NCBI GenBank assembly: GCA_011390955.1
Contig: JAABRM010000001.1
Coordinates: 174,694-238,693 of the forward strand
Reading direction: 5' to 3'
Origin: Oscillatoriales cyanobacterium
GTDB lineage: Bacteria > Cyanobacteriota > Cyanobacteriia > Cyanobacteriales > Laspinemataceae
Length of the DNA: 64,000 bases
Under the pieces are notes generated by a model, which was given only the letters and a program-made list of their open reading frames with translations, made no database searches and was not told the DNA's origin. The position numbers and the translations under genes were made by a program. Below are positions 7,227 to 47,185 of this stretch, in pieces; position 1 is the stretch's first letter, and each line of letters opens with the position of its first letter.

Positions 7227-9089
7227 ATGGCAGAATTCCCTGATTTTAGCAAATACGGCTATCAAATAAAACGTGAATTGGGTCGCAATGTAGCCGGAGG
7301 ACGGCTGACCTACTTGGCTAACCGGATTTTACCCCAAAATTCATCAGCCAATAACGCCGAAAACTGGGTAGTGATTAAGCAATTTCAGTTTGCCACAACG
7401 AGCGCCAATTGGTCAGATTTTAAAGCCCACGATCGCGAAATTAAAGTTTTGCAAAGCCTCGATCGTCCAGGAATTCCTAAATATTTGGATTCTTTCGAGA
7501 CGCCCACGGGTTTTTGTATGGTGCAGGAGTATAAAGAAGCAAAATCTCTGGGAATATTACGCAGTTTTGAGCCAGAACAGATTAAACAAATTGCCCTAGA
7601 CTTGTTAGGAATTTTAGTTTATTTACAAAGTTTAAACCCGTTGGTGATTCATCGAGATATCAAACCAGAAAATATTTTAGTGGCGGAAAATTCCGCAGGT
7701 TCGCTGAAGGTTTATCTGGTTGATTTTGGCTTTGCTCAAATGGGCGGGGGCGAAGTGGCGATGAGCAGTATGGTGAAAGGCACTCTAGGGTTTATGGCAC
7801 CGGAACAGTTGTTTAATCGCAATCTGACTCCGGCATCGGATCTTTATGGTTTGGGGGCGTCTTTAATTTGTTTGCTGACGGCAACTAAATCGATGGAGGT
7901 GGGTAAGTTATTGGATGAAAACTATCATTTTGAATTTAGAGAATTGCTGCCTAAATTGAGTCGGCGCTGGATTTCTTGGCTGGAAAAAATGGTCGAGCCA
8001 GATCCGAAAAATCGCTATGCAAATGCGGCGGAAGCTTTGGCGGCATTGCAACCAATTTATGTTAACCGAACCCCAGAGGTTAAGCTGAGTCCGTCTCCCA
8101 TTGAGTTAGCCGCGTCCAAGGTTGGGGAAACGTTGCGGGTGCAGGTGCTAATAAAAAATTCTGTGCCAGAAACGTTGCTGACGGGTTGGTGGGAGGTGGC
8201 ACCGCATCCGAACGATCCCCCCCAGCCCCCCTTATTAAAGGGGGAGAACGATCCCCCCCAGCCCCCCTTATTAAGGGGGGAGAACGATCCCCCCCAGCCC
8301 CCCTTATTAAGGGGGGAGAACGATCCCCTCCAGCCCCCCTTATTAAGCCATTCTTGGATTAGTTTTAGTCCGTCAAGATTTGCAGACAATCGCGTGGTTT
8401 GTGAGATTTTGATTAATACGCGGAAGCTGAGAACGGGTCAAGTTTACGATCGCCAATTGTTGTTACATACGAATGGGGTGCCGGAAACTCAGACGGTCAG
8501 CTTGACGGTGCAGACGGCGCCGGTGCCGATCGCGGTGCGAAAATTGCCTCGTCGGTTTTTGGGATTACTGTTTTTGGTGGCTGCCGGTGGTTCGGTGGTG
8601 GCTTTGGAGTCCATGATGACTTTGGTGACGGTGGCGATCGCCGGTTTTGTGACTTGGGCGGGTCTTTCGCGGATTTTGGGCAGTCGAAACCATTGGCTAA
8701 AAGTGCTTGTAGCTTTTTTGACTACAATGGTAGTGGCGGGAATTGCCGGATTTGGGATTGGCGTTGTGCTTGGGGCGACGGCGACCGGGTTGTGGACAAC
8801 GGCGATCGCTGCTGCGGTGACGGTGGCAACAGGGGCAAGCTTGCTGGCAACTGCCACGGGAGTGAGAAAAAATTTCGGTACTGGGTGGGCGATCGCGCTT
8901 TGTTTGCTCACAGCAATTTGCGGCATTACTTTCGGTCTGGGTTTAAAATTACAATTATTAGCCTCTCCCTGGCTGTTAGCAATTGCTACCACTGCCCCGG
9001 TACTCGCTTTAGTCCTAATTTTGCCCGCCAGCGATCGGCGACGCCTTGCCAAATATCGGCAATCGGAGCAACATTTAATTGAATCTTAG
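7227..9089 (+). CDS. Membrane-anchored Hanks-type Ser/Thr protein kinase (N-terminal kinase domain, C-terminal multi-TM hydrophobic domain), paralog A
   Basis: Kinase motifs HRDIKPENILV, VDFGFAQ, GTLGFMAPEQ. The C-terminal ~200 aa is almost entirely hydrophobic helices. The central part contains the in-frame 36-bp tandem repeat. Confidence 0.85.
   Translation: MAEFPDFSKYGYQIKRELGRNVAGGRLTYLANRILPQNSSANNAENWVVIKQFQFATTSANWSDFKAHDREIKVLQSLDRPGIPKYLDSFETPTGFCMVQEYKEAKSLGILRSFEPEQIKQIALDLLGILVYLQSLNPLVIHRDIKPENILVAENSAGSLKVYLVDFGFAQMGGGEVAMSSMVKGTLGFMAPEQLFNRNLTPASDLYGLGASLICLLTATKSMEVGKLLDENYHFEFRELLPKLSRRWISWLEKMVEPDPKNRYANAAEALAALQPIYVNRTPEVKLSPSPIELAASKVGETLRVQVLIKNSVPETLLTGWWEVAPHPNDPPQPPLLKGENDPPQPPLLRGENDPPQPPLLRGENDPLQPPLLSHSWISFSPSRFADNRVVCEILINTRKLRTGQVYDRQLLLHTNGVPETQTVSLTVQTAPVPIAVRKLPRRFLGLLFLVAAGGSVVALESMMTLVTVAIAGFVTWAGLSRILGSRNHWLKVLVAFLTTMVVAGIAGFGIGVVLGATATGLWTTAIAAAVTVATGASLLATATGVRKNFGTGWAIALCLLTAICGITFGLGLKLQLLASPWLLAIATTAPVLALVLILPASDRRRLAKYRQSEQHLIES
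8210..8347 (+). repeat. In-frame 36-bp tandem repeat (3.8 copies), each unit carrying the palindrome CCCCCCTTATTAAGGGGGG
   Basis: Unit GAACGATCCCCCCCAGCCCCCCTTATTAAGGGGGGA starts at 8210, 8246, 8282 and 8318. It is translated as (ENDPPQPPLL[K/R]G)n. Paralog B (9295..11235) has no repeat at the equivalent site (APHPNDPKVKPPGHGW). Confidence 0.9.
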
Positions 9090-9294: not shown

Positions 9295-11235
9295 ATGAAC
9301 TTCCCTGATTTTTCCCAACAAGGCTATCAAATTATCGAAGAACTAGGCCATAATCATGCCGGTGGTCGAGTCACTTATTTAGCATCAACTTTAGCATCAA
9401 ATCATCCTGAAGAAAAAGTTGTCATTAAAGAGTTTCAATTTGCCAAAAGTTCGGAAACCTCTTGGGCAGAGTACGACGCTTACCAAAGAGAGATAGAAGT
9501 ATTGCAGGGATTAAATCATCCGGGAATTCCTCGGTATTTAAACTCTTTTGAGACCGCCCAGGGTTTTTGTTTGGTGCAAGAATATAAAAATGCCCAACCT
9601 TTATCCGTTGAAAATGCTTGGATCGCCAAAGATATTAAAAAAATTGCGATCGCGCTATTAGAAATATTAGCCTATTTGCAAAATAGAATACCTCCAGTAT
9701 TTCATCGGGATATCAAGCCAGAAAATATCCTAGTAGATGGCCAACTCAATGTTTATTTAGTCGATTTTGGTTTTGCCCATATTGGTCAGGGAGAAGTAGC
9801 CATGAGTAGCATGGTTAAGGGCACCTTGGGCTTTATGCCACCAGAACAGTTATTTAACCAAGAATTGACCCTGGGTTCAGACCTTTATGGAGTCGGGGCA
9901 ACCCTGATTTGTTTGTTGACTCAGACTAAATCGGTGGATATTGGGAATTTAATTGATGCTTACTATCGGATTAATTTTAAATCTAAAATTCGGCGGATTA
10001 ATCCAGATTTAATTAACTGGCTAGAAAAAATGGTCGAACCGAAACCAAAAGACCGTTTTCCTGATGCTAATACTGCCTTAGAAGCCCTGAAGCCCCTAGA
10101 AGTACGACCAACGGCAAAAGTTAATTGTAGCGCTCAAATTGTTGAAGTCACCGCTCGTGAATTTTCAGAACAACTCACCACTAAAATCGTGATTTCAAAT
10201 CCGATTCGGGGGACAATGCTGGCGGGTCGATTAGCGATCGCGCCCCATCCTAACGACCCAAAAGTAAAACCCCCCGGTCATGGCTGGATTCACATCAGTC
10301 CTCGTCATTTTAAACAGAATCAAGTTCAGTGTAATATTACCATATCTACGAAAAAATTACAAGCAGATTCAACTTATGAACGAGAAATTTTATTAATCAC
10401 CAATGCTAGTAATGAACCGTATAGAATTCCTCTCAGAGTGAATACGGCGTCATTGCCCAAACAAAGTCAGCTACCCTACGGCCATATCGCCACATTATTT
10501 GGCTTGAGTTTTCTTTTATGTTGGCGAATATTATTTGTATTGTGCGGCCATCTGATCTTTTCTTTGATTTTTCATAGTTATGGTTTTTTATTGTTATTAA
10601 TTATCCTAATTGGATGGGCGGTGTTGGCTCAAAAGTTGAGTGAAGAAAAATATGCGACAAACACTGGTGCATGGGCTGGGTTAATTATGTCGGCAGCGAT
10701 CGCATTGGTGACAGGTAATCTTTTTTTAGATATCTTTAATCTAGGTACGGTAATGATGGTATTGGGCAGTTGTTTGGGTGCTCATGCGGGGGGACTTACA
10801 GAAATATTCACTTGGTGGTTTACCAAAACTTCAGCCCCGCACATCGCCAAGGTATTAGCTGGGGCGATCGCCGGTACAATGGCGGCAATTACTGTGTCTT
10901 TATATTACACAAAATATTACATAGAATTACTCCCAGGAGATATCGGAATTTTGTTCTGGTTAATTATGGGAATGTTTGTCAGCGTGTTTGTCGGGGTAGT
11001 GGTCTCTGATTTGATGCTAGAAGATTTTACCCCCCCCTGGGCTGTGACTTTTTCTTTGTTAACTATGGGTCTGGGAATGACAATAGGCATGGTCTCGATC
11101 TGGGGCTGGTGGTCGATGTTATTGCCGGGAATTATTATGGCCGTTTGTTTGGGTAAAATGATTTCTCCCACCACTAAGCGATCGCGCTTAATTAAAACCT
11201 ATCAAAAAAATATATTGCAGTTGATTAAACCCTAG
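9295..11235 (+). CDS. Membrane-anchored Hanks-type Ser/Thr protein kinase, paralog B
   Basis: Kinase domain is collinear with paralog A (HRDIKPENILV, VDFGFAH, GTLGFMPPEQ). Multi-TM C-terminal half. Confidence 0.85.
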   Translation: MNFPDFSQQGYQIIEELGHNHAGGRVTYLASTLASNHPEEKVVIKEFQFAKSSETSWAEYDAYQREIEVLQGLNHPGIPRYLNSFETAQGFCLVQEYKNAQPLSVENAWIAKDIKKIAIALLEILAYLQNRIPPVFHRDIKPENILVDGQLNVYLVDFGFAHIGQGEVAMSSMVKGTLGFMPPEQLFNQELTLGSDLYGVGATLICLLTQTKSVDIGNLIDAYYRINFKSKIRRINPDLINWLEKMVEPKPKDRFPDANTALEALKPLEVRPTAKVNCSAQIVEVTAREFSEQLTTKIVISNPIRGTMLAGRLAIAPHPNDPKVKPPGHGWIHISPRHFKQNQVQCNITISTKKLQADSTYEREILLITNASNEPYRIPLRVNTASLPKQSQLPYGHIATLFGLSFLLCWRILFVLCGHLIFSLIFHSYGFLLLLIILIGWAVLAQKLSEEKYATNTGAWAGLIMSAAIALVTGNLFLDIFNLGTVMMVLGSCLGAHAGGLTEIFTWWFTKTSAPHIAKVLAGAIAGTMAAITVSLYYTKYYIELLPGDIGILFWLIMGMFVSVFVGVVVSDLMLEDFTPPWAVTFSLLTMGLGMTIGMVSIWGWWSMLLPGIIMAVCLGKMISPTTKRSRLIKTYQKNILQLIKP

Positions 11236-28820: not shown

Positions 28821-29148
28821 TAAACTTCACCATTAAATTCCACGGTTGTACAACAACCACCTACGAAAATCGATGCTCCCAATGGCTTGTAATTGCTTCA
28901 ATCGATTCTTCTACATTACCTTAGAGAATGCCCCGATTATAGGCGATCGCTCGGCCTAAACTACCGGCGCACTTACCATAGTAATTGAATCACCAGATTA
29001 ATCAAGGATTCCGTTGGCTCATTTCGGTCGATGGGATTCCGCAAAGCGCGGATCGCGGCAGCGAATCGCCTCAAACTGGGACGGTCTTCCCCGCTACTGG
29101 CTTTCATCGAATTATCTCTATATTAGACCTCTTGCAAAATTCTTAAAA

Positions 29149-29176
29149 GCCCCCCTTTTTAAGGGGGGTTGGGGGG
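29149..29176. repeat. C6-W7-G6 hairpin (GCCCCCCTTTTTAAGGGGGGTTGGGGGG)
   Basis: Same architecture as the CCCCCCTTATTAAGGGGGG unit repeated inside the kinase at 8210..8347, and as TCCCCCTTAAAAAAGGGGGA at 46452..46472. Confidence 0.6.
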
Positions 29177-29446
29177 ATCGAGATATTTATTTTGCGCTCT
29201 TGTCTATTTATCTCTATTTTAAGAGTTATTAAAATCAACGACAATAGGTAGCCTGCTAAACTACGAGCCGATCGACTGCCAAAGTGGAAATCGCTCAAAT
29301 TACAGATTTCAAAAATTCAGCAATTTCGGAAAAACCCCCACATACTTGGTCAGATTTTTTGTCCCCCTCTCCCACAAAGGGAGAGGGTTTAGGGCTGAGG
29401 TTTTTCTCACCAGCGATCTAACAATGCTATAGGGAGCAAATCGTAA

Positions 29447-46015: not shown

Positions 46016-47185
46016 AGTGCTTAATCGGTGCTTAAAAAAGACAGAGGGCATGGGGGCAGGGGGAAAATGCAACAGATTTTAAAGAGAAATCACCAAAAAC
46101 TGTAAAATAGAACACAAAGTGGTAATGTGGAAAGATAACTAAGATTTTCCCGGAGGATCGTGTTTATACCCTTAAGCGTATAATAGAGATAAGCAATTCT
46201 ACATTGCCATCTCACACTAAATCTGATGGTGATTCCTTCGTTACGAAAAAGTGACGCCAAATATTAGCCATCTGCCGGAAAAGCTTTGAAGCAGAATGCT
46301 GGCAACGGCGGCTAAATAACCATTTTTGGCCCTGTGTGGTAGATATCCCTTGAGTTGTGGATGATTTGTCTTCAAGCGACTCAAGACTCAGAAGAGAAAT
46401 CTTCATCAAATCGCTACACTGATCTGTCAGTTAATTCATCCATTCCCCTAAGTCCCCCTTAAAAAAGGGGACGGTGATTTATTTTATTTCTGCTGACAGA
46501 TATACTTAGTGGAGTTGCTCTGAGCGTAACGGATTTTGAGCAGCATCGTGACAAAATTCTCCTAAATCTTAGGTAGCTAATTTCCCGCTGTTTCCCAGTC
46601 ACAGATTCATCTGACTTAGATCATCTTTAAACCCTTAAAGATGATTCAACCCTTGTCAGATGACCTCCAATAACCCTCTAGTTTGGCTGACACCACTTTT
46701 AACTCAGGGTTGGCGAAACAATCTGGATATTGGGGTTAACGATAGTGAAAATTAGCGCTGATTTATCGTGGAGTTTTTATGTCTAAAAACTGATTTATTT
46801 TCTGACTTCACAATTGGCTAAATTGCTGATATAATGATAAGCATAGAGGATCTAAATCATTGGGACATTGGGATAGGCACCCTCCCTAGGGGTTTCCCTG
46901 TTCACAATTTAGACATTTCATCAATGATTTAGAAATGCTATAAAGGCAATGAAAGGCCAAATTCTTGACCAGAAAATCGCTGTTTTTTCAGGAAAAATCT
47001 CCATGATCCAACAATCAGAAACTAGCGACCCACCAAGCCTTGTAGCGGAAATTAGTATTTCGGCTAGGTTTTTGATCGATTATCAAAAAAACTAGCAAAG
47101 ATATTCAGTTTCGGGAAGCGGCAATACCCGCCCCGTTTCCTCTAAATGTAAATAAATATGGGTTCTTCAGCGGGAGCATATTGAT

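What the first reader, a model, noticed from the sequence alone, without database searches (positions are those of the whole stretch)
8210..8347. Palindromic C6-W7-G6 hairpin element expanded as an in-frame 36-bp tandem repeat inside a kinase gene
The unit GAACGATCCCCCCCAGCCCCCCTTATTAAGGGGGGA (3.8 copies) encodes (ENDPPQPPLL[K/R]G)n in a linker between the kinase domain and the membrane domain. Paralog B has no repeat at the homologous position (APHPNDPKVKPPGHGW). The same hairpin type occurs outside genes at 29149..29176 and 46452..46472. This looks like a small dispersed palindromic element that inserted and amplified while preserving the reading frame (36 = 12 codons). It is a potential source of length polymorphism in a signalling protein.
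Basis: seen in the sequence. Interest (0 to 1): 0.55.

Follow-up and report, generated by a model that had tools for sequence, protein, structure and literature searches.

The report
Palindromic repeat expanded inside kinase gene
A 31-base hairpin-forming repeat found throughout cyanobacteria sits in frame inside a Planktothricoides protein-kinase gene, has multiplied there as a 36-base tandem repeat, and varies from about 1 to 5 copies between close relatives; this is a clear but fairly ordinary case of selfish-looking repeat DNA tolerated in a floppy protein loop.

Summary
Window 8210..8347 holds 3.83 near-identical 36-bp units, in frame in a Ser/Thr kinase gene (7227..9089), encoding (NDPPQPPLL[K/R]GE)n.

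The repeating unit is more than the C6-W7-G6 hairpin. About 113 are labelled cyanobacteria, from many orders, and 130 of 142 hairpins carry the G6ATC tail on exactly one side.

Orthologues in Planktothricoides and relatives carry 0.83, 1.83, 2.83, 3.83 or 4.83 units, or a different insert.

AlphaFold places the repeat in a disordered loop inside a beta-sandwich domain, not in an interdomain linker. In 95 of 116 homologues this loop is a fixed 14-residue motif, HxSDPPHTPxxHxW.

The intergenic copy at 29147..29180 lies in a 76-nt segment that is absent from a close relative.

Independent 36-37-nt tandem arrays of the same element occur in Floridaenema and Microcystis. About 10% of sampled copies lie in frame in other long genes.

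Most likely mechanism: an element-derived unit expanding and contracting by hairpin-promoted slippage. How the unit first arose here is unresolved.

The parts
7227..9089 (+). Host gene: Ser/Thr protein kinase (620 aa). It has an N-terminal kinase domain (nt 7356-8033), a beta-sandwich domain (nt 8076-8513) and a C-terminal bundle of membrane helices.
   Evidence: ORF list; Pfam Pkinase E 5.7e-31; AlphaFold model with pLDDT 80.4 and strands at aa 284-429; orthologues 94-96% identical, named Planktothricoides kinases.
8210..8347 (+). 36-bp in-frame tandem array, 3.83 units: 8210-8245, 8246-8281, 8282-8317 and a partial unit at 8318-8347. It encodes (NDPPQPPLL[K/R]GE)3 + NDPLQPPLL.
   Evidence: TRF period 36, 98% matches, score 262; unit sequences; translation.
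8214..8320 (-). Three complete family elements read on the minus strand (8214-8248, 8250-8284, 8286-8320). Each reads CCCCC(C)TT(T)AATAAGGGGGG-CT-GGGGGGGATC and is separated from the next by GTTCT.
   Evidence: nhmmer with a profile of 120 copies from other cyanobacteria: E 1.2e-7, 1.3e-10 and 1.3e-10.
8322..8347 (-). Truncated terminal element: loop + G-arm + tail, with no C-arm on this strand. On the coding strand it is DPLQPPLL, directly before the invariant H375-x-W377.
   Evidence: nhmmer E 3.4e-5; H375 and W377 are nearly invariant in 116 homologues.
8226..8316 (.). Three C6-TTATTAA-G6 hairpins (8226-8244, 8262-8280, 8298-8316). Neighbouring units can also pair with each other through a 19-bp stem.
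   Evidence: Pattern search. Folding of 8196-8366: DNA -28.9 kcal/mol, z -2.96, 0 of 200 shuffles as stable; RNA -57.2 kcal/mol, z -1.97. The MFE structure shows one intra-unit hairpin and one inter-unit long stem.
8205..8357 (+). The expanded loop (aa 327-377, H...W), predicted disordered. It corresponds to a fixed 14-residue motif HxSDPPHTPxxHxW in most homologues.
   Evidence: Mean pLDDT 45-60 over aa 331-370, between strands 319-324 and 378-381; 95 of 116 homologues have exactly 14 residues here.
10246..10287 (+). Homologous loop of the tandem paralog B (gene 9295..11235): HPNDPKVKPPGHGW, 14 aa, no repeat.
29147..29180 (+). Intergenic full-length family member: CCCCCCTTTTTAAGGGGGG-TT-GGGGGGATC.
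   Evidence: nhmmer E 2.6e-10; sequence.
29123..29198 (.). 76-nt segment carrying the intergenic element. It is absent from the orthologous intergenic region of a close relative and is bounded by a short CAAGAG direct repeat.
   Evidence: Alignment with L151 (FWWL01000256.1; the neighbouring gene is 93% identical at the protein level).
46442..46470 (-). Degenerate relative of the element: CCCCTTTTTTAAGGGGGACTTAGGGGAAT.
   Evidence: nhmmer E 0.039; sequence.

Best explanation
The array is a coding-region minisatellite whose 36-nt unit is one copy, in reverse orientation, of a roughly 31-nt palindromic repeat element plus 5 nt. The element reads CCCCCCTTWWWAAGGGGGG, a 2-5 nt spacer, then G6-7ATC, and is found across the cyanobacterial phylum. 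It lies in a disordered surface loop of a cytoplasmic beta-sandwich domain of a membrane-anchored Ser/Thr kinase of Planktothricoides.

Shown: the unit belongs to the family by sequence. The family is dispersed and almost entirely cyanobacterial. One other copy in this window is an insertion/deletion polymorphism. The kinase array changes by whole units between close relatives.

Inferred, mechanism: once two units lay side by side, each a near-perfect palindrome, single-stranded DNA could form both intra-unit hairpins and 19-bp inter-unit stems. That would make replication slippage or unequal recombination frequent. Changes that are not multiples of 36 nt (12 codons) would truncate the protein before its membrane domain and be removed by selection. 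Four of the six reading frames of the unit are open. In the frame used, the unit encodes DPPQPP, which mimics the conserved DPPHTP motif it overlaps. The loop is unstructured, so added units are tolerated.

Inferred, origin: the element, or an ectopic copy acting as a conversion template, was captured on the look-alike Pro-rich codons of the conserved motif, next to an older hairpin insert that already existed in the common ancestor with the sister lineage.

The most likely consequence for the cell is near-neutral variation in loop length, not a regulatory switch.
For: Family membership: the nhmmer profile built from 120 copies in other genera hits the units at E about 1e-10 across hairpin and tail.

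Family definition: 130 of 142 hairpins in other genomes carry the tail on exactly one side. Among 120 oriented copies the G-run is 6 nt in 100 and 7 nt in 17, and it is followed by ATC in 95. The flanks are not conserved.

Taxonomy: about 113 of 120 stretches are labelled cyanobacteria, from Nostocales, Oscillatoriales, Chroococcales, Pseudanabaenales, Leptolyngbyales and others.

Allelic series: 0.83 units (P0009, P0010, L006); 1.83 (P0004, P0007); 2.83 (P0001, P0124, P0128-130); 3.83 (window, P0002, P0121); 4.83 (P0122). L007 equals L001 minus exactly one unit. Window unit 1 is identical to L001 unit 1, while the internal units differ. Variants are array-specific, for example a CTG spacer with a TTAAAAA loop in L002.

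Structure-prone DNA.

Loop tolerance.

Recurrent behaviour of the family: independent arrays of 36 nt x 3.0 in Floridaenema (98% matches) and 37 nt x 3.0 in Microcystis (100% matches). In-frame copies occur in other long ORFs that look, from their translations, like a histidine kinase, an NRPS, a TPR/CHAT protein and an acyl-CoA ligase. One further ORF, resembling an SLH-type outer-membrane protein, carries the same peptide HDPPQPPLKRGE.

Presence/absence polymorphism at 29123..29198.
Against: No read-level or experimental evidence of ongoing instability exists. All copy numbers come from different assemblies, and short-read assemblies can miscount repeats, although one 2.83-unit allele (P0128) comes from a 7.2-Mb contig.

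The founding event does not look like a clean insertion. The minimal allele (1.83 units) is a 30-nt direct repeat around 6 nt, the array ends in a truncated unit, and GATCCCCCCCA(A/G) is also present as the DPPQ codons in the alternative allele, where the hairpin lies 21 nt away.

The alternative allele is shared with the sister lineage, so the canonical-looking unit may be secondarily derived.

No transposase or other mobilising function was identified.
Confidence: 0.62

Rival explanations
1. Iterated self-targeted insertion. Each unit is a separate transposition of the mobile element next to an existing copy, for example with a 4-5-nt target duplication that becomes the spacer. Slippage of a pre-existing unit is not involved.
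For: Arrays with a 4-5-nt spacer recur in unrelated genomes: CTTTT in Floridaenema, GACA in Microcystis and AGAAC here. In each case the flank upstream of the first unit resembles the spacer: GAAC here, GACA in L096 and GTTTT in L070. From memory of the abstract of Elhai et al. 2008, which could not be read here, some cyanobacterial small dispersed repeats insert within copies of themselves.
Against: Units within one array share private variants not seen in the dispersed copies sampled, such as C7 + AG + TTATTAA here and CTG + TTAAAAA in L002. This fits local duplication. Alleles differ by exact loss or gain of whole units in register (L001 versus L007). The array ends in a truncated unit, which insertion does not explain. 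No transposase was found.
Confidence: 0.15
2. In situ origin, with convergence. The unit was assembled locally from the Pro-rich codons of the conserved DPPHTP motif plus an older, degenerate hairpin insert, by a 21-nt deletion and point changes. It only resembles the dispersed element. The tandem repeat is then an ordinary coding minisatellite with no link to mobile DNA.
For: DPPQPP aligns with the nearly invariant D330, P332 and P335 of the family motif. The alternative allele is DPPQ-LGPAWEH-SPYKKGE-QENP-HSW, and the sister-lineage allele is DIPQLAAGNDPDGRPPFERGELGDNKHPW. Together they suggest that the alt-like state is ancestral and that the main allele equals it minus LGPAWEH. Given the protein motif, the tail match costs only a few bits.
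Against: Encoding D-P-P-x-P-P entirely with GAT and CCC has a chance of roughly 1% at this genome's codon usage, where CCC is 36% of Pro codons. The unit also matches the family in loop composition, arm length, spacer length and G7ATC (E about 1e-10). The older insert in the sister lineage itself looks like a family member in the opposite orientation (CCTCCCTTTGAAAGGGGGG-AGTTA-GGAGAC), so element DNA is involved in either case. An unrelated ORF in an Oscillatoria MAG, resembling an SLH-type outer-membrane protein, carries the identical in-frame peptide.
Confidence: 0.15
3. Selected functional repeat. The Pro-rich, charged dodecapeptide is a selected binding or spacer module, for example a polyproline ligand. 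Copy number would then tune kinase signalling, or the C7/G6 tracts would act as a phase-variation switch.
For: Copy number varies between strains as in contingency loci. Homopolymer runs of 6-7 lie inside the ORF. In one assembly (L136, P0015) the gene is truncated exactly after the first hairpin.
Against: The loop is cytoplasmic by inferred topology (kinase, beta-sandwich, then membrane helices), so antigenic variation is unlikely. No frameshifted allele was seen among about 25 orthologues. The L136 break is a junction with unrelated DNA, not a tract-length change. Alleles without the repeat, or with quite different inserts, coexist in backgrounds that are otherwise nearly identical. That argues for tolerance rather than for a required function.
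Confidence: 0.07

Closest known systems
Rickettsia palindromic elements (RPE; Ogata et al. 2000, as cited in the review PMC3184786) and other REP/MITE sequences fused in frame to genes
   Same: These are palindromic repeat DNA dispersed in the genome. A fraction sits in frame inside protein-coding genes and adds a peptide segment that the protein tolerates. Here about 10% of sampled copies lie in long ORFs.
   Different: From memory, RPEs are roughly 100-150 bp and restricted to Rickettsia. This element is about 31 nt, spread across the cyanobacterial phylum, and in this gene has also been amplified in tandem. No structural or expression data exist for the inserted peptide.
REP sequences and REPINs (Bertels and Rainey 2011, PMC3116915; GTAG/CGTC-tagged REPs, PMC3733652)
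   Same: Both are short (20-40 nt) G+C-rich imperfect palindromes with an asymmetric unpaired tail, mostly extragenic and in many copies. They are often found as inverted doublets, for example L076, L108 and L113. Ordered tandem clusters are reported for Pseudomonas REPs in PMC3116915.
   Different: No GTAG or CGTC tag; the tail here is G6ATC. No RAYT association was tested. The RAYT-linked REP reported for Nostoc punctiforme is a different sequence, GTTGGGTTTCGTTCCTCAACCCAAC. Classical REPs are specific to a species or genus, whereas this core is nearly identical across cyanobacterial orders.
Small dispersed repeats SDR1-8 of Nostocaceae (Elhai et al. 2008, Genome Res 18:1484)
   Same: Both are very small cyanobacterial repeats, some with a hairpin structure and a link to GATC/HIP1. 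The abstract, recalled from memory, describes nested and tandem contexts.
   Different: SDRs are described as 21-27 nt and confined to the Nostocaceae (PMC5861425). This element is about 31 nt and occurs in many orders. The paper itself was not available, so sequence identity with an SDR family could not be excluded.
Coding-region minisatellites (VNTRs) and contingency loci
   Same: An in-frame unit that is a multiple of three, near-identical copies, and whole-unit copy-number differences between strains.
   Different: The unit here is itself a palindrome derived from a dispersed element. The host protein segment is a cytoplasmic loop rather than a surface antigen. No on/off switching was seen.

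Membership tests
Cyanobacterial C6-TTWWWAA-G6 / G6ATC composite element (family defined here) | 19-nt hairpin CCCCCCTTWWWAAGGGGGG followed on one side by a 2-5-nt spacer, a G6-7 run and ATC | tested here: met
   Minus-strand units read CCCCCCTTAATAAGGGGGG-CT-GGGGGGGATC. The profile from other genera gives E 1.3e-10.
Cyanobacterial C6-TTWWWAA-G6 / G6ATC composite element (family defined here) | Dispersed, multi-copy and restricted to cyanobacteria | tested here: met
Only 14 hairpins in 2.9 million viral contigs, about 5 of them with the tail. In this window there is 1 further full copy and 1 degenerate copy. A whole-genome count for this organism was not possible.
REP / REPIN | Short imperfect palindrome, mainly extragenic, high copy number, frequent inverted doublets | tested here: met
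   About 90% of sampled copies lie outside ORFs of 150 aa or more. Inverted doublets occur in L036, L049, L076, L108 and L113.
REP / REPIN | Association with a RAYT (IS200/IS605-like Y1 transposase) gene flanked by the same REP; GTAG or CGTC tag | tested here: not met
   The tag is absent, since the tail is G6ATC. The known N. punctiforme RAYT-REP has a different sequence. RAYT linkage itself was not tested, because no whole genome was available.
MITE | 50-500 bp, terminal inverted repeats matching an IS, target-site duplication, empty and filled sites | tested here: inconclusive
   The 31-nt core is below MITE size. The 76-nt indel at 29123..29198 is an empty/filled pair, with GCAAAAT/ATTTTGC inverted repeats and a CAAGAG direct repeat, but its boundaries are ambiguous. 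No parent IS was identified.
SDR elements (Elhai 2008) | One of eight defined 21-27-nt consensus sequences, confined to the Nostocaceae | not testable with these tools
   The paper is not held. Its size and taxonomic range as described in PMC5861425 do not fit.
Coding VNTR / minisatellite | Tandem in-frame unit with whole-unit copy-number differences among close relatives | tested here: met
   0.83 to 4.83 units across orthologues with about 85-94% BLASTP identity to the window protein.
Phase-variable contingency locus | Out-of-frame tract-length alleles that switch expression | tested here: not met
   No frameshifted allele among about 25 orthologues. The only truncated one (P0015, L136) is a junction with unrelated DNA.
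Intrinsic terminator | G+C-rich hairpin followed by a U-run, oriented with the upstream gene | tested here: not met
   No orientation bias relative to flanking genes (28 versus 28) and no enrichment between convergent genes, using crude ORF calls. Within the gene the hairpins are read through. Only the minus-strand reading of the 29150 copy has a T-rich trailer.

The most novel reading that the evidence does not exclude
The roughly 31-nt composite (C6-TTWWWAA-G6, spacer, G6ATC) may be a REP-like element family that is spread across the phylum and has not been described. Its near-identity from Pseudanabaena to Nostoc and Microcystis would then imply recognition by a conserved cyanobacterial machinery, for example a GATC/HIP1-linked nuclease, methylase or Y1 transposase. 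The element would propagate both by dispersal and by head-to-tail multimerisation, and would routinely seed new peptide segments in proteins. The kinase array would be a live example of protein-loop innovation from such an element, helped by mimicry of a resident DPPxxP motif.
Probability: 0.25. Interest if true: 0.65.

Novelty: new member of a known kind. Interest (0 to 1): 0.4.

Why it matters
For the kinase itself the effect is probably small: a variable, disordered, cytoplasmic loop. The locus is useful in three ways.

First, it is a ready-made strain-typing marker (VNTR) for Planktothricoides and its relatives.

Second, it is a clean natural example of how small palindromic repeat DNA enters and expands within a coding sequence without destroying the protein. 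This case includes an allelic series and an empty/filled site elsewhere in the same window.

Third, it points to a highly conserved 31-nt element shared by most cyanobacterial orders. I could not find its means of spread, or any host function, described in the searchable literature. If a conserved protein recognises it, that protein and its link to GATC/HIP1 biology would be worth finding.

It is also a practical warning for annotation and assembly. The element creates spurious small ORFs, such as the 110-aa minus-strand ORF at 8057..8389, and it is a possible cause of contig breaks.

Tried and rejected
Rfam, whole window at gathering threshold: no hit, so this is not a known RNA family.

Literature searches by name (SDR, HIP1, MITE, palindromic, in-frame) and by literal sequence strings of the element found no paper describing it. 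The key paper, Elhai 2008 (PMC2527708), is not held.

RAYT-REP identity was rejected: the N. punctiforme RAYT-linked REP has a different sequence.

A terminator role was rejected, since there is no orientation or context bias.

A phage origin was not supported. There are only 14 hairpins in IMG/VR, and most lack the tail.

The truncated orthologue P0015 (L136) was examined as a possible frameshift or phase variant. It is instead a junction with unrelated DNA carrying a 475-aa ORF with no significant Pfam or NCBIfam match.

I tried to define clean ends and a target-site duplication for the 76-nt indel at 29.1 kb. The boundaries stay ambiguous because of the CAAGAG direct repeat and because the flanks partly resemble those of Laspinema copies.

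I tried to decide whether the main allele or the alternative allele is ancestral. The outgroup favours the alternative allele, but both alleles segregate within otherwise near-identical backgrounds. The question is unresolved.
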